DNA of 64,000 bases, taken from the NCBI GenBank assembly GCA_963716475.1, contig OY970314.1:74479-138478 (forward strand), written 5' to 3'. The notes below the pieces were generated by a model. The model was not told the DNA's origin. It searched no databases and was given only the letters and a program-made list of their open reading frames with translations. Positions within the stretch are counted from its first letter, which is position 1, and every line of letters starts with the position of its first letter. A program made the translations under genes and the position numbers. This document shows, one piece after another, positions 43,118-64,000 of the stretch. The DNA is from Candidatus Woesebacteria bacterium (lineage in GTDB: Bacteria; Patescibacteriota; Microgenomatia; UBA8517).

Positions 43118-43813
43118 ATGAAAATTGCCTTGATTATTCCCACATACAATGAAGCCGAAAATATTGTTAACCTGATACGGGGTGTAAAACTCCGAAATCT
43201 TAATTTAAAAATAATTGTAGTTGATGACGCCTCACCTGACGGTACCGGAAAGAAGGTTTCGAAATTTCCTGAGGTAATATTGATTTCCAGAAAGGGAAAA
43301 CTGGGTCTGGGGTCTGCCTATAAGGAAGGTTTTAAATATGCTTTAAGGCAGGGATATGATGTTATCGGAACAATGGATGCGGACTTTTCCCACGACCCGA
43401 AATTTCTTCCGGAAATGGTAACCGCAATAAAAAGGTGCGACATGGTAATAGGTTCCAGATATGTCAAAGGTGGGAATATAGTCGGTTTTAATTTTTGGAG
43501 AAAATTAATAAGCGGATCGGCGCAGTTCATGTCAAGGAAACTTTTGGGAATAAACGTTAAAGACGCCACAAGCGGTTTTAGATTATATAAAAAAGATGTT
43601 CTTATAACAACCGGTTATGCATCGATTAAGTCCCAGGGGTATTCTTTTTTGATCGAATCTCTATTTTTATCCCTAAAACACGGCTTTAATGTATGTGAAG
43701 TACCAATCGTTTTTGAAAACAGAAGACTGGGAACATCAAAAATATCGGGCTCGGAAATTATAAAGGCCCTATTTACAGTTGTCAGGCTTAAGTATAAATT
43801 TAATTTGGCTTAG
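43118..43813 (+). CDS. polyprenol-phosphate sugar synthase (Dpm1/GtrB-like GT2)
   Basis: IIPTYNEAENI, VVDDASPDGT and GTMDADFSHDP motifs. ATG at 43118; the ORF track begins at a TTG at 43082. Confidence 0.8.
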   Translation: MKIALIIPTYNEAENIVNLIRGVKLRNLNLKIIVVDDASPDGTGKKVSKFPEVILISRKGKLGLGSAYKEGFKYALRQGYDVIGTMDADFSHDPKFLPEMVTAIKRCDMVIGSRYVKGGNIVGFNFWRKLISGSAQFMSRKLLGINVKDATSGFRLYKKDVLITTGYASIKSQGYSFLIESLFLSLKHGFNVCEVPIVFENRRLGTSKISGSEIIKALFTVVRLKYKFNLA

Positions 43814-45154
43814 ATGAAAGAAAATATTCCCAAGGAGGAGGAGAAAATTTCAGCCATCAGGGCGGCCAGGGTGTCTGAAAAAATCCGTCAGGCAAAACTT
43901 GGCCTTTTGGCAAGGAGGGCCTGGTGGAGTGACGGTCCTCTCGAAGATGCTGTACTTCTTCTGGTTTTATTCTTAAATTTTTATCTGATCTTTCCTTTGA
44001 TTGGGAAGGAAGCTCCGATTGTCACTTTTTCGGGACCTGTTATCCCGGTTCTTACAAATTTACTTTCTTCACTAATTAATAGCCCGTTTTATTATTCTCT
44101 TCAGATAGTATATATAGTGTTTTTTCTGGCTTTTCCGGTTACTTTTTATTTCTTGATTAAAAAATTGACAAACCGGAAGCTAATTGCTTTTTTTGCATGT
44201 CTTTTTTCCACTATTCCCATATACATGTTGGGTAGAACCAGACTGATGTCGATGTTTTTCGGTCAGGACGGGCCGCACGTGGTTTCACTTACAGTGATAC
44301 CTGTTGCCTTATACTTCTTGATTATCTATTTGAAAGAAGGATCCATAAAAGACCTGATTTACGCCGGCTTGAGCGCTGCCCTTGTAGCTTTGATTTCCCC
44401 TTTCGGGTTTTTAAATTATCTTATATTTGCCGGAATATTTACTTTTTCCGAAATCTTGCTGGGCCAGGGGAGGACAAAAATACTGAAATTCCTTCTTATC
44501 CTTGTGACTGCAGGAGCTTTATCGGCCTTTTGGTATAATCCGTCATTTTTTATCTGGATGCTGACAGGCCCTATGGGAAGCGACATCAGATCTATGGTTT
44601 CCAAACTTTTACCCGTTTCCTTTTTTGCCATTCCGATTCTGGCAACATTCGGCTATCTTTTATTTGACCGTAAACCCAATTTGCAGCCTCTTTTTATTGT
44701 CAGTTTTTGCACAATAGCATTTTTTATTATTACCGTTGCCGGCGGGAACCTTGTTCCTTCAAGCCCGGCAAGATACCGGACGGAATTGGGGATTACCGTT
44801 TCTTTCTTGGCGGCATTTCTATTTGTTTCTTTAATTGAACTTTTTAAGTTTCGGGTTATTAAAGTAAACCTTACCGGAAAAGTTTGGGATTTTTTGTCGA
44901 ATTTGGTAGTTCCGGCCTTGGGGGTAGCATTCCTTGTTACCGGGATTTTAATTCGTGACGTAATGATCTACGACAGCACGGATGTACTCGGGATTTGGAC
45001 GGAGATTCCAAAAGGAAGTGTCTGGGTAGCCAGAGATAATTTTATGGGCTACCACGCGTATATAGGTTATTCAATAACTGCGATAGCGTTAGGAGCTTTG
45101 ATTTACTTAGCCGTTAAAGGCAACTCTGTAGCTAAAATAAAAACAATTGTCTAA
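43814..45154 (+). CDS. polytopic membrane protein (about 12 TM), possible GT-C glycosyltransferase
   Basis: 446 aa, hydrophobic throughout. Start abuts the upstream stop. Confidence 0.5.
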   Translation: MKENIPKEEEKISAIRAARVSEKIRQAKLGLLARRAWWSDGPLEDAVLLLVLFLNFYLIFPLIGKEAPIVTFSGPVIPVLTNLLSSLINSPFYYSLQIVYIVFFLAFPVTFYFLIKKLTNRKLIAFFACLFSTIPIYMLGRTRLMSMFFGQDGPHVVSLTVIPVALYFLIIYLKEGSIKDLIYAGLSAALVALISPFGFLNYLIFAGIFTFSEILLGQGRTKILKFLLILVTAGALSAFWYNPSFFIWMLTGPMGSDIRSMVSKLLPVSFFAIPILATFGYLLFDRKPNLQPLFIVSFCTIAFFIITVAGGNLVPSSPARYRTELGITVSFLAAFLFVSLIELFKFRVIKVNLTGKVWDFLSNLVVPALGVAFLVTGILIRDVMIYDSTDVLGIWTEIPKGSVWVARDNFMGYHAYIGYSITAIALGALIYLAVKGNSVAKIKTIV

Positions 45155-46153
45155 ATGAAAAAAGCATTAGTTACTGGAGGGGCAGGCTTCATAGGAACGA
45201 ATCTGGTTTTGAAACTCCTGGAAAACGGTTGGAAAGTTACAGTTTTGGACAACCTTTCCAGAAAAGGAACAAAATTTAATCTTGATTTAATAAGGAAAAG
45301 TGCAGGAAAAGGTTTCCTGGAATTATTAATTAGAGATATCAGAGAGAAAAATATTTTTGACAACCTTATTAATACAGATGCCATCTTTCACCTGGCCGGG
45401 CAAACTGCAGTGACCACTTCAGTAATAAACCCGTCGGAGGATCTGGACATTAATTTATTTGGAACATTCAATCTACTGGAGAGCATGAGAAAGAAAAAAA
45501 GCAGGTCAGTTCTTATTTATGCATCAACGAATAAAGTTTACGGGTCGCTCTCTTATCTAAGTCGCACGAAATTAATGGATGGTGTCTCTGAGGAAACTAA
45601 TCTGGATTTCCATTCTCCTTACGGTTGTTCAAAAGGATCAGCGGAAAGTTATATCCGTGACTACGCGAGAATTTATGATATCAATAGTGTCGTTTTCCGG
45701 CAGTCTTGTATTTACGGAACTCATCAAATGGGAGTTGAGGATCAGGGTTGGGTGGCCCATCTGGGAGCGAGGGCGATTTTGGGCAAAACTATAAATATTT
45801 ACGGCAGCGGGGGTCAAGTTCGCGATCTTCTTTATGTAGACGATTTAGTTGATTTATACCTTTTATCTGTTCGGAGTCAAGATAAGGTTAAGGGTAAAGT
45901 GTTTAATGTTGGGGGAGGACGACAAAATGCAATTTCAGTTTTAGAGTATATAGATTTTTTGTCGTATTATTTGAAGAAAGACATTAAAACGTCCAAAAAT
46001 GATACTCGGCCTGGGGACCAGGAAGTTTTTATCTCCGACAACTCTTTAGTCAAACGGGTACTTGATTGGCAACCTAAAGTCGGTTATAAGATAGGTCTTG
46101 TAAGGATGCTTTCATGGATAAAGGAAAATCAACAAATCTTCAAAAACCTTTGA
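45155..46153 (+). CDS. NAD-dependent sugar epimerase/dehydratase (extended SDR)
   Basis: 332 aa. VTGGAGFIGTNL Rossmann motif, YASTNKVYG, and catalytic YxxxK (YGCSKGSAESY). Confidence 0.8.
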   Translation: MKKALVTGGAGFIGTNLVLKLLENGWKVTVLDNLSRKGTKFNLDLIRKSAGKGFLELLIRDIREKNIFDNLINTDAIFHLAGQTAVTTSVINPSEDLDINLFGTFNLLESMRKKKSRSVLIYASTNKVYGSLSYLSRTKLMDGVSEETNLDFHSPYGCSKGSAESYIRDYARIYDINSVVFRQSCIYGTHQMGVEDQGWVAHLGARAILGKTINIYGSGGQVRDLLYVDDLVDLYLLSVRSQDKVKGKVFNVGGGRQNAISVLEYIDFLSYYLKKDIKTSKNDTRPGDQEVFISDNSLVKRVLDWQPKVGYKIGLVRMLSWIKENQQIFKNL

Positions 46154-62826: not shown

Positions 62827-63008
62827 CGAAATTATCCGTTGATCAGAAGAAGTGCATTGGTTGTGGTTTATGCGAGGCTTTGGCCCCTAAAACTTTTAAG
62901 CTTAATTCTATAGGTAAATCTGAAGTAATTAACCAAAAAGGTGACAGTAAGGCCGATATTCAAAACGCGATTGACAGTTGCCCCGTCAAAGCTATTTCGT
63001 ATAAGTAA
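62823..63008 (+). CDS. small single-cluster [4Fe-4S] ferredoxin
   Basis: 61 aa. SVDQKKCIGCGLC…SCPVKAI matches the CxxCxxC…CP ligand pattern of Pyrococcus-type ferredoxins. Confidence 0.65.
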   Translation: MTKLSVDQKKCIGCGLCEALAPKTFKLNSIGKSEVINQKGDSKADIQNAIDSCPVKAISYK

Positions 63009-63082
63009 TCTTCCTCAAGGTACGAAGAGCCCCGATCACCTTGTCAGGCTCGGTAAATGATGATATATATAGCCATACTTTC

Positions 63083-64000
63083 ATGAAAGCCTTGATTTTG
63101 GCGGGTGGGTTCGGCACGAGACTTAAAGAAGTCATAAGCGACAGGCCGAAAGTTATGGCGCCTGTTAACGGCAAACCTTTTTTGGAATATATAATTCAAC
63201 TTCTTCGAAGAAACGGGTTTAAGGAAATAGTAATTTCTGTAGGTTACTTGGGTGATTATATAAAGACTTACTTTGGTGACGGAACTAACTTTGGTGTAAA
63301 AGTTGAATATGTGGTGGAAGATTTCCCCCTGGGTACCGGGGGTGCATTGAAAAAGGCCGAATCTTATTTCGAGGAGCCTTTTTTAGTTGTTAACGGAGAT
63401 ACATATTTGGAAACGGATTTTTCGCGTCTTATATCTTTTCATAGTGGAAAAAAATCCCTGGCAACCATAGCGTTAGCCGTAATAAATAATGTGGGAGAAT
63501 CCGGGTTAGTTTCTTTGCAGAAATCCGGGAAAATAAAATCATTTAAAGAAAAACCCAAAACAAGCAAGAAGGGTCTTGTTAATGCGGGCTACTATTTCTT
63601 CACACCGAAAATTTTCAAACATATTCCTTCCGGGAAACGTCTTTCATTGGAGAAAATAGTTTTCCCAAAACTGGTAAAAGCCGGGCTGATTTACGGTTAT
63701 GCAATGAATGCAAACTTTTTGGATATCGGTAAACCGGAAAGCTATGAAATAGCAAAGACATATTTTAAAAAGCAGAAAAAGATAGTTATCGAAGCCAACG
63801 CTCCCGTGAGGGTTTGTTTTGCCGGGAGCGGAACTGACTTGCCGGAATACTTTAGGAAGTATGGCGGTAGGATTTTCTCCGTAACCATAGGGATGTTTGC
63901 GCACGTAAAAATTCAACTTACAGACCAGGCATTTATTAAAATTCATTTGAAAGATTACAGGAAAGAGGAAATCTACCAACTCGGGAAAATATTGCCGTAT
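63083..64000 (+). CDS. fused sugar-1-phosphate nucleotidyltransferase (N) + GHMP sugar kinase (C, HddA-like), 3' end beyond window
   Basis: Hand translation from ATG 63083: MKALILAGGFGTRLKEVISDRPKVMAPVNGKPFLEY…VVNGDTYLETDF (NTP_transferase G-loop). It continues in frame without a stop into …IEANAPVRVCFAGSGTDLPEYFRKYGGRIFSVTIGMF… (GHMP kinase N-terminal motif). It is not in the ORF track because no stop lies within the window. Confidence 0.7.
   Translation, partial: MKALILAGGFGTRLKEVISDRPKVMAPVNGKPFLEYIIQLLRRNGFKEIVISVGYLGDYIKTYFGDGTNFGVKVEYVVEDFPLGTGGALKKAESYFEEPFLVVNGDTYLETDFSRLISFHSGKKSLATIALAVINNVGESGLVSLQKSGKIKSFKEKPKTSKKGLVNAGYYFFTPKIFKHIPSGKRLSLEKIVFPKLVKAGLIYGYAMNANFLDIGKPESYEIAKTYFKKQKKIVIEANAPVRVCFAGSGTDLPEYFRKYGGRIFSVTIGMFAHVKIQLTDQAFIKIHLKDYRKEEIYQLGKILPY

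What the first reader, a model, noticed from the sequence alone, without database searches (positions are those of the whole stretch)
43118..64000. About 21-kb co-directional glycan/glycoprotein biosynthesis locus downstream of the giant-gene cassettes
All the following genes are on the + strand, many with 4-nt start/stop overlaps, suggesting one or a few operons. They are a Dpm1-like polyprenol-P-sugar synthase, four or five large polytopic membrane proteins (GT-C-like), an NAD-dependent epimerase and GT4 and GT2 enzymes. They also include two SAM methyltransferases, three B12-radical SAM enzymes, a ferredoxin and an NDP-sugar/sugar-kinase fusion. Together with the upstream giant Ser/Thr-rich surface proteins and the DUF2723 enzyme, this looks like machinery for an elaborately modified (possibly methylated) surface glycan or protein O-glycan.
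Basis: inference. Interest (0 to 1): 0.6.

Follow-up and report, generated by a model that had tools for sequence, protein, structure and literature searches.

The report
Surface-glycan gene cluster tied to sortase cassettes
This stretch of an uncultured ultra-small (CPR/Patescibacteria) bacterium encodes a tightly packed sugar-coating pathway, and dozens of related genomes place it right after giant surface proteins and their dedicated sorting enzymes, so it probably decorates or anchors them.

Summary
Positions 43118-64000 carry 16 back-to-back + strand genes. They are a DPMS-like polyprenyl-phosphate sugar synthase, four polytopic GT-C-type membrane proteins and a CDP-tyvelose-2-epimerase-like SDR. 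There are also two GT4s, a weak GT2, two SAM methyltransferases, three class-B-type radical SAM enzymes, a ferredoxin and a truncated HddC-HddA fusion.

Corrections:
- Only 3 of 15 junctions are exact 4-nt overlaps.
- Only one radical SAM protein passes Pfam's B12-domain threshold.
- The locus continues past the window end, with GmhA-like and Gmd-like genes that point to a GDP-heptose route.

In genome and metagenome loci from Woesebacteria, Levybacteria, Gottesmanbacteria, WWE3 and others, the order is giant HTH-GT2 protein, archaeosortase-like gene, TM446, GT4, TM536, methyltransferase(s), TM999-like.

Best reading (confidence 0.5): a mannose-type glycosylation pathway, acting outside the membrane with polyprenyl-phosphate donors, that serves the Ser/Thr-rich, sortase-processed giant proteins. 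Heptose, methylation and radical SAM tailoring modules vary between relatives.

Rivals are a LAM-like lipoglycan, and a GPI-like glycolipid acceptor for the sortase.

It is a new variant of a known kind. Interest 0.55.

The parts
43118..43813 (+). GT2dpm: soluble DPMS/Dpm1-like polyprenyl-phosphate sugar synthase (231 aa)
   Evidence: PF00535 at 3.8e-30. Best solved relative is P. furiosus Dol-P-Man synthase 5mlz, E 8.5e-36 over residues 1-224, followed by ArnC. Best NCBIfam hits are PpgS, AglJ, Dol-P-hexose transferase, PgfS and ArnC, all below equivalog cut-offs. No TM segment. A DAD motif is visible in the sequence. A 54% identical ortholog lies next to a TM446 homolog in L046.
43814..45154 (+). 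TM446: 446-aa polytopic GT-C-fold protein, the anchor of the conserved core; in relatives it is encoded directly after the archaeosortase-like gene
   Evidence: About 11 predicted TM segments. The window protein has no Pfam hit, but 21 of 51 family members match PF10131 PTPS_related. AF2 model has pLDDT 84 and pTM 0.83. The top 19 Foldseek PDB hits are all GT-C-fold proteins (AglB, PglB, STT3, AftD, Emb, AftA, PIG-U), with E about 1e-3 and TMq 0.28-0.48 (0.40-0.48 for the OST, AftD and AftA hits). No conserved acidic residue was found in the first outer loop.
45155..46153 (+). SDR332: NAD-dependent NDP-hexose 2-epimerase-like enzyme (CDP-tyvelose 2-epimerase type)
   Evidence: PF01370 at 3.5e-47. 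PDB hits 9rl0 and 1orr (CDP-tyvelose 2-epimerase) score E 3.8e-80 and 2.8e-79, against 5e-41 for the best GalE. The 9RL0 enzyme converts CDP-glucose to CDP-mannose (PMC13098431, PMC7851689). The same slot holds a radical SAM/SPASM gene in L002 and L004/L005.
46114..47379 (+). GT4_421: cytoplasmic GT4 glycosyltransferase, part of the conserved core
   Evidence: PF00534 at 5e-33. Best NCBIfam hits are MshA and BshA, and the best PDB hit is MshA 7qsg. A homolog lies downstream of TM446 in 26 of 38 loci with enough sequence.
47385..48995 (+). TM536: polytopic GT-C of the PMT_2 (GT39/GT83-like) type, part of the conserved core
   Evidence: About 10 predicted TM segments. 39 of 50 family members match PF13231 PMT_2, and some sources name homologs 'glycosyltransferase family 39'. 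Y74, D76, H79, W81 and Q82 are invariant in the loop after TM1.
49078..49794 (+). MT238: SAM-dependent methyltransferase, part of the conserved core (1-6 paralogs in relatives)
   Evidence: Methyltransf_11 at 1.5e-23. The gene call on identical contig L001 gives 238 aa. A methyltransferase is present downstream in 27 of 31 loci.
49791..52790 (+). TM999: GT-C (PTPS_related) membrane domain, a roughly 520-aa outer domain and a C-terminal TM anchor
   Evidence: PF10131 at 4.9e-11, 42 bits against a cut-off of 26. PF10131 belongs to GT-C clan CL0111 (PMC7801869). AF2 model has pLDDT 73. The membrane part matches STT3, AftD and AglB at E 1e-5 to 3e-4. The outer domain matches GH42 and GH164 glycosidases over about 350 columns (which of their domains was not determined) and STM3548 (2gk3). 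D45 is invariant after TM1.
52774..55557 (+). TM927: paralog of TM999 with the same architecture
   Evidence: The outer domains are homologous: 23% identity over 406 aa, E 9e-23. About 8 TM segments plus a C-terminal anchor. A 'GTD' motif after TM1 parallels 'GND' in TM999. No Pfam family at threshold.
55558..57009 (+). rSAM483: class-B-like radical SAM enzyme with a non-canonical CX9CX2C cluster motif
   Evidence: PF04055 at 5e-17. HpnJ, MJ_0865 and BchE families are the best NCBIfam hits, all below cut-off. It aligns with rSAM456 from the B12-type domain onward. The motif is conserved in 4 orthologs. Orthologs of 51-63% identity follow the TM999/TM927-type gene in L002, L004, L007 and L012.
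57027..58397 (+). rSAM456: B12-binding-domain radical SAM enzyme
   Evidence: PF02310 at 66 bits (cut-off 32) plus PF04055. Canonical CX3CX2C motif. The closest solved structure is AprD4 (6fd2, 1e-26), followed by OxsB, CysS and TokK.
58400..59185 (+). MT261: SAM-dependent methyltransferase
   Evidence: Methyltransf_11 at 2.8e-20. A 45% identical ortholog sits in the same block in L003.
59185..60615 (+). rSAM476: class-B-like radical SAM enzyme
   Evidence: PF04055 at 3.7e-25. B12-binding scores only 20.6 bits, below the cut-off of 32.1. AprD4 at 1e-18. A 59% identical ortholog lies in L003 within the block MT261, rSAM476, GT4_359, (rSAM), GT2_376.
60620..61699 (+). GT4_359: GT4 glycosyltransferase
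   Evidence: PF13692 and PF00534 at about 1e-11, above cut-offs. Weak best hits to PEP-CTERM/XrtA-system glycosyltransferases and TuaH.
61696..62826 (+). GT2_376: GT2-like protein with 3 C-terminal TM segments (weak assignment)
   Evidence: Only sub-threshold Pfam GT2 hits. MftF-type glycosyltransferase at 4e-12 over residues 173-254. No PDB relative. A 54% identical ortholog lies in L003.
62823..63008 (+). Small 4Fe-4S ferredoxin, the likely reductant for the radical SAM enzymes
   Evidence: Fer4_13 at 3.4e-16. Its GTG start overlaps the preceding stop by 4 nt. The electron-donor role is inferred.
63083..64000 (+). N-terminal 306 aa of a 573-aa HddC-like nucleotidyltransferase / HddA-like GHMP kinase fusion, cut by the window end
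   Evidence: NTP_transferase at 2e-38. The full gene on identical contig L006 matches HddA at 1e-58 and HddC at 5e-49. It is followed by a GmhA-like isomerase (1e-58) and a Gmd/LegB-like 4,6-dehydratase. All are below equivalog cut-offs.
13846..15228 (+). u13846: distant paralog of TM446, lying on the other side of the giant-gene cassettes (outside the finding but part of the system)
   Evidence: hhalign against the TM446 family profile gives probability 95% and E 4e-8 over 211 columns. Homologs lie upstream of the giant gene or of TM446 in L002, L012, L056, L062, L065, L080 and L081.
15395..41888 (+). Three cassettes of giant HTH-GT2 surface protein plus archaeosortase-like gene (giants 15395-19282, 20438-31612, 35013-41273; sortases 19275-19838, 33555-34127, 41283-41888), with a TMEM260/PMT_2-like GT-C carrying TPR repeats at 31625-33550
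   Evidence: Giants: HTH plus GT2 domains, outer parts 23% Ser+Thr against an 11% background, and a C-terminal (V/I)PE-x + hydrophobic + K/R signal conserved in many relatives. Sortases: TIGR04178 at 31.6-38.3 bits against a cut-off of 23. DUF2723/TMEM260-like at 4e-26 plus TPR.

Best explanation
The locus is the enzyme part of a cell-surface glycoconjugate system conserved in CPR bacteria. It acts on the giant, Ser/Thr-rich, sortase-processed proteins encoded just upstream.

Proposed mechanism:
1. (inferred) In the cytoplasm, the tyvelose-epimerase-like SDR converts an NDP-glucose into NDP-mannose.
2. (inferred) The soluble DPMS-like GT2 loads that sugar onto polyprenyl phosphate. The lipid carrier is made by genes in the same window.
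3. (inferred) After flipping by an unidentified flippase, the GT-C enzymes transfer sugars on the outer face of the membrane. TM536 (PMT_2 type) and the upstream TMEM260-like enzyme would start O-linked chains on the giant proteins. TM446, TM999 and TM927 would extend or branch them, with the large outer domains of TM999 and TM927 holding the growing glycan.
4. (inferred) The cytoplasmic GT4s, the GT2-like enzyme and the two methyltransferases add and tailor further sugars. The three class-B-type radical SAM enzymes do likewise, reduced by the ferredoxin. One input would be a GDP-heptose or 6-deoxyheptose made by the HddC-HddA, GmhA-like and Gmd-like genes that continue past the window end.

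What is shown: the gene content, the family and fold assignments, and the conserved synteny. The sugar identity, the acceptor, the enzyme order and the radical SAM chemistry are inferred.
For: - **Enzyme identities.** DPMS-like GT2. TyvE-like 2-epimerase, whose solved homolog makes CDP-mannose from CDP-glucose.
- **GT-C status of the membrane proteins.** TM999 matches PF10131 above threshold, and that family belongs to clan CL0111. 39 of 50 TM536-family members match PMT_2 and 21 of 51 TM446-family members match PTPS_related. The TM446 and TM999 models match only GT-C-fold proteins in their membrane parts. D76 in TM536 and D45 in TM999 are invariant after TM1.
- **Linkage to the substrates.** The order giant, sortase, TM446, GT4, TM536, methyltransferase, TM999-like recurs in dozens of loci from several CPR lineages.
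- **Substrate features.** The giant proteins have outer parts with 23% Ser+Thr and a conserved C-terminal sorting signal. Each is followed by a TIGR04178-positive sortase.
- **A protein-directed GT-C.** A TMEM260/PMT-like GT-C with TPR repeats sits inside one cassette.
- **Described precedent.** In the S. mutans Pgf cluster a GT-A, an epimerase and two GT-Cs are encoded beside the Ser/Thr-rich adhesins they glycosylate (PMC12041528).
- **Tailoring modules belong to the same pathway.** The radical SAM genes are joined to GT-C, GT4 and GT2 genes by gaps of 17 nt or less. The blocks are conserved in L002, L003, L004, L007 and L012. B12-radical-SAM-like genes lie inside the core in 8 of 34 further loci. 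The closest solved relative, AprD4, is annotated as an apramycin (aminoglycoside) biosynthetic enzyme.
- **Heptose route.** Genes for it lie on the identical contig L006.
- **Lipid carrier.** Isopentenyl phosphate kinase, IPP isomerase, a polyprenyl synthase and UppS lie at 8.6-12.8 kb.
Against: - There are no experimental data of any kind.
- No GtrA/Wzx-type flippase and no initiating phosphoglycosyl transferase lies in the region, because every stretch is occupied by the 16 genes.
- A pathway that uses only polyprenyl-phosphate monosaccharides does not explain what the cytoplasmic GT4 and GT2 enzymes act on.
- TM446 has no conserved acidic residue in its first outer loop.
- The window's own TM446, TM536 and TM927 have no Pfam hit.
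- Profile-profile comparisons among the three membrane families are not significant.
- Fold matches are moderate: E 1e-3 to 1e-6, TMq 0.3-0.48.
- As far as I know, GT-Cs with large outer domains (AftD, YfhO) act on polymers rather than proteins.
- Heptose-pathway matches are all below NCBIfam equivalog cut-offs, and no GmhB was seen.
- B12 dependence is supported at threshold for only one radical SAM protein.
- The GT2 domain inside the giant proteins could itself be the polymer synthase.
Confidence: 0.5

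Rival explanations
1. The locus makes a free lipoglycan or secondary cell-wall polymer, analogous to mycobacterial PIM/LM/LAM or to extracytoplasmic glycosylation of teichoic acids. A GT4 would prime a membrane lipid in the cytoplasm, and several GT-Cs would then elongate it outside from polyprenyl-phosphate sugar. The giant proteins would be neighbours but not substrates.
For: - The enzyme set (GT4 with MshA-like best hits, DPMS-like GT2, four GT-Cs) mirrors the mycobacterial set of PimA/B, Ppm1 and PimE/Mpt/Emb/Aft (the mycobacterial pathway is from my own knowledge).
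- TM999 matches AftD over about 1,000 columns and has an outer domain that matches GH42/GH164 glycosidases.
- YfhO-type GT-Cs decorate teichoic acids (PMC8035078).
- UppS and a WecG/TagA gene lie in the same window.
Against: - The core gene TM446 follows the archaeosortase-like gene directly in most relatives. A polymer unrelated to the sorted proteins would not explain that.
- No TagO, TagB/F, TagGH, LCP or LtaS-type gene is in the region.
- A TPR-bearing TMEM260/PMT-like GT-C inside a cassette points to protein acceptors.
Confidence: 0.22
2. The conserved core (sortase-like enzyme, TM446, GT4, TM536, methyltransferase, TM999) builds a GPI-like glycolipid. The archaeosortase-like transpeptidase then uses it as the acceptor when it cleaves the C-terminal signal of the giant proteins. 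TM446 would act as the lipid-presenting GT-C-fold partner, as PIG-U does in the eukaryotic GPI transamidase.
For: - TM446 is encoded immediately after the sortase gene in 28 of 45 loci.
- It has a GT-C fold but no conserved acidic residue in its first outer loop.
- PIG-U is among its fold hits (7w72_U, rank 19).
- The enzyme set of GT4, DPMS-like GT2 and several GT-Cs parallels PIG-A, DPM1 and PIG-M/V/B (my own knowledge).
- Archaeosortase substrates are known to be lipid-anchored (PMC7157517, listed; only its title and abstract start were seen).
Against: - OST-type GT-Cs match TM446 better than PIG-U does.
- The acceptor of any exosortase or archaeosortase outside haloarchaea is unknown.
- No interaction evidence was obtained.
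- The Ser/Thr richness of the giant proteins and the TPR-bearing PMT-like enzyme are explained more simply by O-glycosylation.
Confidence: 0.12
3. The radical SAM, methyltransferase and ferredoxin part (55.5-63 kb) is a separate pathway placed inside a glycan locus. It would modify lipids (hopanoid- or ladderane-like chemistry) or amino-acid residues of the giant proteins (RiPP-like C-methylation), not sugars.
For: - The best NCBIfam hits include HpnJ, BchE, a lipid B12/radical SAM family, and the peptide-modifying families ApyD and rSAM_ocin_1, all below cut-off.
- Relatives carry SPASM-type radical SAM genes, a type often used for peptide maturation.
- These modules are present in only some relatives.
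Against: - The genes are joined to GT-C, GT4 and GT2 genes by junctions from -4 to 17 nt.
- The block MT261, rSAM476, GT4_359, GT2_376 travels together in L003.
- B12-radical-SAM-like genes sit between GT4 and TM536 in L049, L062 and L064.
- A SPASM radical SAM gene occupies exactly the slot held by the sugar-nucleotide epimerase in the window.
- The nearest solved relative, AprD4, belongs to an aminoglycoside (sugar) pathway.
Confidence: 0.15

Closest known systems
Pgf protein O-glycosylation cluster of Streptococcus mutans (PgfS, PgfE, PgfM1, PgfM2 with the adhesins Cnm, CnaB, CbpA)
   Same: A GT-A polyprenyl-phosphate sugar synthase, a sugar-nucleotide epimerase and GT-C transferases are encoded beside the Ser/Thr-rich, sortase-anchored surface proteins that they glycosylate outside the membrane (PMC12041528). 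The window's GT2 hits the PgfS model at 4e-11.
   Different: Here there are four or five GT-Cs from other families (PTPS_related and PMT_2 rather than YfhO), and the sortase is of the archaeosortase/exosortase type rather than LPXTG. The substrates are giant HTH-GT2 fusion proteins. Extra GT4s, methyltransferases, class-B radical SAM enzymes and a heptose route are present. The epimerase is a 2-epimerase type, not a 4-epimerase.
Actinobacterial Ppm1-dependent pathways: protein O-mannosylation by PMT, and PIM/LM/LAM assembly (PimA/B, PimE, MptA-C, Emb, Aft)
   Same: One polyprenyl-phosphate mannose synthase feeds several GT-C enzymes on the outer face, and cytoplasmic GT4s prime the structure. 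TM999 resembles AftD in its membrane domain and in having a large outer domain. The pathway itself is from my own knowledge.
   Different: There is no phosphatidylinositol-specific evidence. No sequence-level membership in GT39, GT87 or Emb families was shown for the window proteins themselves. The linkage to sortase cassettes has no actinobacterial counterpart.
Haloferax volcanii S-layer glycoprotein system (Agl pathway plus archaeosortase ArtA)
   Same: A large surface glycoprotein has a C-terminal tripartite signal that is processed by an archaeosortase. Its glycan is built on polyprenyl phosphate by AglJ/AglD-type GT2s, with a methyltransferase (AglP) and a Dol-P-Man-dependent GT-C-like final step (my own knowledge). 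The window's GT2 hits AglJ at 1.4e-14, and the sortases hit the ArtC and ArtH models weakly.
   Different: No oligosaccharyltransferase is present: TM446 lacks the C-terminal soluble domain that carries the WWDxG motif. The organism is a bacterium. The sorting motif is (V/I)PE-x rather than PGF.
PEP-CTERM / exosortase (XrtA/EpsH) exopolysaccharide loci
   Same: An exosortase-family enzyme, substrates with a C-terminal 'PE'-type motif followed by a TM segment and basic residues, and neighbouring GT4 genes. GT4_359 and GT4_421 weakly hit the 'PEP-CTERM/XrtA system glycosyltransferase' models.
   Different: The sortases here are about 190 aa and fall below every named subfamily cut-off. There is one dedicated sortase per giant gene. 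The glycan genes are dominated by GT-Cs rather than Wzx/Wzy or synthase-type exopolysaccharide genes.
GDP-D-glycero-alpha-D-manno-heptose and 6-deoxyheptose pathways (GmhA, HddA, GmhB, HddC, DmhA) of Campylobacter capsules, Yersinia O-antigen and the Aneurinibacillus S-layer glycan
   Same: HddC-like, HddA-like, GmhA-like and Gmd-like genes lie in a row at the 3' end of the locus.
   Different: HddC and HddA are fused. All scores are below equivalog cut-offs. No GmhB was seen in the sequence available. Only the first 306 aa of the fusion lie inside the window.

Membership tests
GT-C glycosyltransferases (Pfam clan CL0111) | Polytopic membrane domain of about 8-13 TM helices | tested here: met
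   The hydropathy scan gives 11, 10, 10 and 8 segments for TM446, TM536, TM999 and TM927. The AF2 models are all-helical bundles.
GT-C glycosyltransferases (Pfam clan CL0111) | Sequence match to a GT-C Pfam family at the curated threshold | tested here: inconclusive
   TM999 meets it: PF10131 at 42.2 bits against 26.4, and PF10131 is in CL0111 per PMC7801869. The window's own TM446, TM536 and TM927 give no hit. However, 21 of 51 TM446-family and 39 of 50 TM536-family members match PTPS_related or PMT_2 at E <= 0.01.
GT-C glycosyltransferases (Pfam clan CL0111) | GT-C fold | tested here: met
   The top 19 PDB hits for the TM446 model are all GT-C-fold proteins. The membrane part of TM999 matches STT3, AftD and AglB. 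Scores are moderate. TM536 and TM927 were not modelled.
GT-C glycosyltransferases (Pfam clan CL0111) | Conserved acidic residue in the first extracytoplasmic loop | tested here: inconclusive
   D76 is invariant in TM536 and D45 in TM999. TM927 has 'GTD' at the same place. TM446 has no conserved Asp or Glu in that loop.
GT-C glycosyltransferases (Pfam clan CL0111) | Use of a polyprenyl-phosphate-linked sugar donor | not testable with these tools
   This needs biochemistry. It is supported only indirectly, by the adjacent DPMS-like GT2.
N-oligosaccharyltransferases (STT3/AglB/PglB) | C-terminal soluble domain carrying the WWDxG motif | tested here: not met
   TM446 is 446 aa and helical to its end. 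Its only 'WWSDG' lies before TM1 on the predicted cytoplasmic side. It resembles OSTs in fold only.
DPMS/Dpm1-type polyprenyl-phosphate glycosyltransferases (GT2) | GT-A catalytic domain with a DxD motif and closest similarity to characterised members | tested here: met
   PF00535 at 4e-30. 5mlz DPMS at 8.5e-36, then ArnC. A 'DAD' motif is visible in the translation.
DPMS/Dpm1-type polyprenyl-phosphate glycosyltransferases (GT2) | Score above an NCBIfam equivalog cut-off (PpgS, AglJ, Dol-P-hexose transferase, ArnC) | tested here: not met
   The best is PpgS at 68.9 bits against a cut-off of 370. So this is family-level similarity only, and the sugar specificity is unknown.
DPMS/Dpm1-type polyprenyl-phosphate glycosyltransferases (GT2) | Membrane anchor, as in P. 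furiosus DPMS, GtrB and ArnC | tested here: not met
   There are no TM segments in the 231 aa. The match to 5mlz covers only its catalytic residues 23-246 of 374.
Class B (cobalamin-dependent) radical SAM enzymes | Radical SAM core with a CX3CX2C motif | tested here: inconclusive
   PF04055 is above threshold in all three. rSAM456 and rSAM476 have CX3CX2C. rSAM483 and four orthologs have CX9CX2C.
Class B (cobalamin-dependent) radical SAM enzymes | N-terminal B12-binding domain (PF02310) at threshold | tested here: inconclusive
   rSAM456 scores 66.3 bits against 32.1, which is met. rSAM476 scores 20.6, which is not met. rSAM483 gives no hit, but it aligns to rSAM456 across that region.
Class B (cobalamin-dependent) radical SAM enzymes | Actual cobalamin use | not testable with these tools
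   No cobalamin riboswitch is in the window. Cobalamin uptake or salvage genes in the rest of the genome could not be examined.
GDP-D-glycero-alpha-D-manno-heptose pathway | GmhA, HddA, GmhB and HddC all present at equivalog level | tested here: inconclusive
   HddC-like scores 167-169 bits against a cut-off of 300, HddA-like 199 against 600, and GmhA-like 198 against 276. These are the top or near-top hits for their domains (the nucleotidyltransferase domain matches a mannose-1-phosphate guanylyltransferase model equally well), but all are below cut-off. No GmhB lies in the 10.9 kb available.
Exosortase/archaeosortase sorting systems | Sortase-family protein plus substrates with a C-terminal tripartite signal | tested here: met
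   TIGR04178 at 31.6, 32.2 and 38.3 bits against a cut-off of 23. The (V/I)PE-x + hydrophobic + K/R tail is present in all three giant proteins and in many relatives.
Exosortase/archaeosortase sorting systems | Membership of a named subfamily (XrtA, XrtG, XrtX, ArtA, ArtC, ArtH) | tested here: not met
   The best is ArtC at 31 bits against a cut-off of 100.
Three-component extracytoplasmic glycosylation (GT2 + GtrA/GtcA flippase + GT-C) | Small GtrA-family flippase encoded with the GT2 and GT-C genes | tested here: not met
   All of 43118-64000 is occupied by the 16 assigned genes, and none is a small 4-TM protein. The rest of the genome could not be searched.
Canonical wall/lipoteichoic acid synthesis | TagO/TagA/TagB-F/TagGH/LCP or LtaS genes within the locus | tested here: not met
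   None appears among the Pfam and NCBIfam results for the 16 genes. The only WecG/TagA gene is 35 kb upstream, at 6865-7650.

The most novel reading that the evidence does not exclude
The conserved core (archaeosortase-like enzyme, TM446, GT4, TM536, methyltransferase, TM999-type GT-C, fed by a DPMS-like synthase) would be a bacterial counterpart of the eukaryotic GPI-anchor pathway. It would build a mannose- and heptose-containing, methylated glycolipid on the outer face. The sortase-like transpeptidase, partnered by the GT-C-fold protein TM446 (as PIG-K is by PIG-U), would transfer giant surface proteins onto it after cutting off their (V/I)PE-type C-terminal signal.
Probability: 0.1. Interest if true: 0.9.

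Novelty: new variant of a known kind. Interest (0 to 1): 0.55.

Why it matters
CPR/Patescibacteria are thought to live attached to host cells, yet almost nothing is known about how their surfaces are built. This analysis shows that a glycan locus, a sortase-type sorting enzyme and giant HTH-GT2 surface proteins form one conserved genomic unit across several CPR lineages.

- It assigns testable roles to three membrane-protein families that had no functional annotation in the sources searched (TM446, TM536, and TM999/PTPS_related).
- It predicts mannose- and heptose-based, methylated and radically tailored glycans on, or under, the giant proteins.
- It raises the question of why bacteria with such small genomes keep class-B-type, possibly cobalamin-requiring radical SAM enzymes in a surface pathway.
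- If the sortase uses a product of this locus as its acceptor, that would name an acceptor for an exosortase-type enzyme. To my knowledge none is established outside haloarchaea.

Tried and rejected
- **Promoter and terminator scans** of 41.2-64 kb showed no excess over shuffled sequence, so they say nothing about operon structure.
- **Profile searches against PDB sequences** with the TM446, TM536 and TM999 families found no relative.
- **Profile-profile comparisons** among the three membrane families were not significant, with probabilities of 0.4-2.5%. They cannot be called paralogs of one another on sequence. Only u13846 against the TM446 family was significant.
- **Organism name:** the exact cluster look-up gave none. 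The source genome is not among the species representatives matched, so 'CPR/Patescibacteria' rests on the labels of homologs.
- **Literature searches** for archaeosortase or exosortase in CPR, GT-C in Patescibacteria, and cobalamin radical SAM enzymes in polysaccharide clusters found no description of this locus.
- **Other sequence features:** no riboswitch or other Rfam family apart from two tRNAs, and no meaningful repeats in 41-64 kb.
- **Readings rejected:** a canonical teichoic-acid locus (no hallmark genes), an N-oligosaccharyltransferase role for TM446 (no soluble WWDxG domain), and GT2_376 as a firm GT2 (sub-threshold only, no PDB relative).

Full report
**1. What is there**

Positions 43118-64000 hold 16 consecutive + strand genes. 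Using the most likely starts, the gaps between them are 0, 0, -40, 5, 82, -4, -17, 0, 17, 2, -1, 4, -4, -4 and 74 nt. The genes are therefore packed very tightly.

Most genes in the window are on the + strand and GC skew is positive almost throughout. Strand alone therefore says little. Simple promoter and terminator scans are uninformative.

**2. Gene identities**

- **43118-43813** is a soluble GT2. Its closest solved relative is the Pyrococcus dolichol-phosphate mannose synthase (5mlz, E 8.5e-36 over the catalytic domain), followed by ArnC. NCBIfam places it nearest to PpgS, AglJ, Dol-P-hexose transferase, PgfS and ArnC, all below equivalog cut-offs.
- **45155-46153** is an SDR that matches CDP-tyvelose 2-epimerases far better than anything else: 3.8e-80 against 5e-41 for the best GalE. 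The solved 9RL0 enzyme converts CDP-glucose to CDP-mannose (PMC13098431, PMC7851689).
- **46114-47379** and **60620-61699** are GT4s.
- **61696-62826** is only weakly GT2-like and has three C-terminal TM segments.
- **49078-49794** and **58400-59185** are Methyltransf_11 enzymes.
- **62823-63008** is a small 4Fe-4S ferredoxin.
- **Radical SAM proteins at 55558-57009, 57027-58397 and 59185-60615.** Only the middle one passes Pfam's B12-binding threshold. The third is below it. The first has no B12 hit but aligns with the second across that domain, and it carries a CX9CX2C motif conserved in four orthologs. AprD4, annotated as an apramycin biosynthetic enzyme, is the best solved relative of the second and third and the second-best of the first (9ccb ranks first there); OxsB also matches all three, and CysS and TokK the second and third.

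**3. The locus does not end at the window edge**

The last gene, starting at 63083, is cut by the window end. An identical Logan contig (L006) shows it to be a 573-aa fusion of an HddC-like nucleotidyltransferase and an HddA-like GHMP kinase. It is followed by a GmhA-like phosphoheptose isomerase and a Gmd/LegB-like 4,6-dehydratase.

Together these point to a GDP-heptose or 6-deoxyheptose supply route. Every score is below the equivalog cut-off, and no GmhB was seen.

**4. The four large membrane proteins**

- **TM999 (49791-52790)** matches PF10131 (PTPS_related) above threshold. That family belongs to the GT-C clan (PMC7801869). Its model (pLDDT 73) matches STT3, AftD and AglB in the membrane part. 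Its outer domain matches GH42 and GH164 glycosidases over about 350 columns, and STM3548. I did not determine which glycosidase domains are matched.
- **TM927 (52774-55557)** shares that outer domain with TM999 (E 9e-23).
- **TM536 (47385-48995)** has no Pfam hit itself. However, 39 of 50 family members match PMT_2. Y74, D76, H79, W81 and Q82 are invariant after TM1.
- **TM446 (43814-45154)** also has no hit itself, but 21 of 51 family members match PTPS_related. Its model (pLDDT 84) retrieves only GT-C-fold proteins in the first 19 PDB matches. I found no conserved acidic residue in its first outer loop.

The three families are not detectably related to each other by profile comparison, and none has a sequence relative in the PDB.

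**5. Synteny, the key test**

I tested it in three ways.

- Homologs of TM999 are rare: 13 in the large protein collection, unnamed or labelled Patescibacteria.
- Their contigs, and 22 loci from species-representative genomes, share a core order: TM446, then an SDR or a radical SAM/SPASM gene, GT4, TM536, methyltransferase(s), and TM999-type GT-C(s). The genomes are labelled Woesebacteria, Levybacteria, Gottesmanbacteria, WWE3, Paceibacterota and others. Several have giant HTH-GT2 genes or sortase-like genes next door.
- A metagenome scan with the TM446 profile gave 74 more loci. An archaeosortase-like gene lies directly upstream of the TM446 homolog in 28 of 45 loci with enough sequence. A sortase-like or giant gene lies upstream in at least 23 of 29. 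GT4, TM536 and methyltransferase homologs follow in 26 of 38, 23 of 31 and 27 of 31 loci.

A close relative (72-81% identity for the TM446 and TM536 homologs) repeats the window's local arrangement: giant gene, reverse-strand beta-lactamase-like gene, GT2, TM446, and so on. The linkage is therefore conserved, not accidental.

**6. The upstream partners**

- Each of the three giant proteins carries N-terminal HTH domains and a membrane GT2 domain.
- Their outer parts are 23% Ser+Thr against an 11% background.
- Each has a C-terminal tail of (V/I)PE-x, a hydrophobic segment and basic residues. The tail is conserved in many relatives.
- Each is followed by a protein of about 190 aa that passes the exosortase/archaeosortase signature model, but no named subfamily.
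- A TMEM260/PMT_2-like GT-C with TPR repeats sits in the second cassette.
- The gene before the first cassette (13846-15228) is a distant paralog of TM446 (probability 95%). The cassettes are thus bracketed by two genes of this family.
- Genes for the polyprenyl-phosphate carrier lie at 8.6-12.8 kb: isopentenyl phosphate kinase, IPP isomerase, a polyprenyl synthase and UppS.

**7. Most likely mechanism (confidence 0.5; every step is inferred)**

1. NDP-glucose is epimerised at C2 to NDP-mannose by the TyvE-like SDR.
2. The DPMS-like GT2 makes polyprenyl-phosphate mannose or a related sugar.
3. After flipping, the GT-Cs transfer it outside the membrane. TM536 and the TMEM260-like enzyme would start chains on the Ser/Thr-rich giant proteins. 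TM446, TM999 and TM927 would extend them.
4. The GT4s, the GT2-like enzyme, the methyltransferases and the radical SAM enzymes (reduced by the ferredoxin) add and tailor further sugars, including heptose.

What is shown is the gene content, the families and folds, and the synteny. The sugar, the acceptor, the enzyme order and the radical chemistry are not shown.

The closest described precedent is the S. mutans Pgf cluster. There a GT-A, an epimerase and two GT-Cs lie beside the Ser/Thr-rich adhesins they glycosylate (PMC12041528).

**8. Weak points and rivals**

Weak points:
- No flippase or initiating transferase is in the region.
- The role of the cytoplasmic GT4s is unexplained in a model that uses only monosaccharide donors.
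- Fold scores are moderate.
- As far as I know, GT-Cs with large outer domains act on polymers.

Rivals:
- A free LAM-like lipoglycan or wall polymer (0.22).
- A GPI-like glycolipid that serves as the sortase's acceptor, with TM446 as a PIG-U-like partner (0.12). This is also the most novel reading.
- The radical SAM block serving lipids or peptide residues rather than sugars (0.15 for that part). This is weakened by its tight embedding and its co-conserved blocks.

**9. Novelty and score**

No paper in the searchable library describes this locus or sortase-type systems in CPR bacteria.

The parts are of known kinds: polyprenyl-phosphate/GT-C glycosylation, exosortase-type sorting, and sugar tailoring. 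The combination is not described. It comprises largely unannotated GT-C families, giant HTH-GT2 substrates each with its own sortase, class-B-type radical SAM modules and a heptose route in a reduced genome.

I rate it a new variant of a known kind, with interest 0.55.

Noticed in passing
window 15395-19282, 20438-31612, 35013-41273; relatives L029-L095: All three giant proteins end in a tail of (V/I)PE-x, a hydrophobic segment and K/R residues. Many homologs in other CPR loci do the same. This looks like an undescribed exosortase/archaeosortase sorting signal ('VPE-CTERM').
   Followed up: partly
window 19275-19838, 33555-34127, 41283-41888: Each giant gene has its own gene of about 190 aa that passes the exosortase/archaeosortase signature model (TIGR04178) but no named subfamily. 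That makes three dedicated sortases within 26 kb.
   Followed up: partly
window 15395-41273 (giant proteins, N-terminal 700 aa): The giant proteins fuse transposase-like HTH domains to a membrane-embedded, cellulose-synthase-like GT2 domain ahead of the huge outer part. I cannot explain a DNA-binding-type domain on a membrane glycosyltransferase.
   Followed up: no
window 13846-15228: A 460-aa polytopic protein with no Pfam or NCBIfam hit is a distant paralog of the TM446 family (hhalign probability 95%). It recurs upstream of the giant gene or of TM446 in relatives, so the cassettes are bracketed by two genes of this family.
   Followed up: yes
window 8664-12841: A lipid-carrier supply cluster: isopentenyl phosphate kinase (above cut-off), IPP isomerase (above cut-off), a polyprenyl synthase on the - strand, and a UppS. 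The UppS is 425 aa, and its prenyltransferase domain covers only residues 20-239, leaving an unexplained C-terminal extension of about 186 aa.
   Followed up: partly
window 41966-42988 (- strand): A membrane-anchored class-A beta-lactamase-like protein interrupts the + strand run between the last sortase gene and the GT2. A similar reverse-strand gene sits at the same place in close relative L103, and a 48% identical one lies in L065.
   Followed up: partly
window 55558-57009; L002, L004, L007, L012 orthologs: This radical SAM family has a conserved CX9CX2C cysteine motif (G-C-G-x8-C-x-F-C) in place of the canonical CX3CX2C.
   Followed up: partly
L002 5457-6440, L004 5415-6383, L005 3754-4722: In these relatives the slot between TM446 and the GT4, held by the NAD-dependent 2-epimerase-like SDR in the window, is occupied by a radical SAM/SPASM gene. 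This suggests two alternative chemistries for the same step.
   Followed up: partly
window 6865-7650: A WecG/TagA/CpsF-family glycosyltransferase (TarA-like) lies 35 kb upstream of the locus. It is the only hallmark gene of lipid-linked wall-polymer synthesis in the window.
   Followed up: no
window 12969-13187 (+) and 34124-34435 (-); L002 3740-4063: Small ORFs sit beside the cassettes. From their sequences they look like MerR/excisionase-type HTH proteins, but I did not scan them. The L002 counterpart carries precomputed MerR and HTH_17 hits.
   Followed up: no
L007, L016, L018, L019, L023, L024, L026, L027 (record titles): Several species-representative MAGs that carry this CPR-type locus are titled 'uncultured Gammaproteobacteria' or 'Nevskiaceae'. 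These are probably mislabelled or contaminated bins.
   Followed up: no
window 58001-62000: GC content falls to 0.36-0.37 over the radical SAM/GT4/GT2 block, against 0.38-0.50 over the rest of the window. This would fit the block being a variable accessory module.
   Followed up: no
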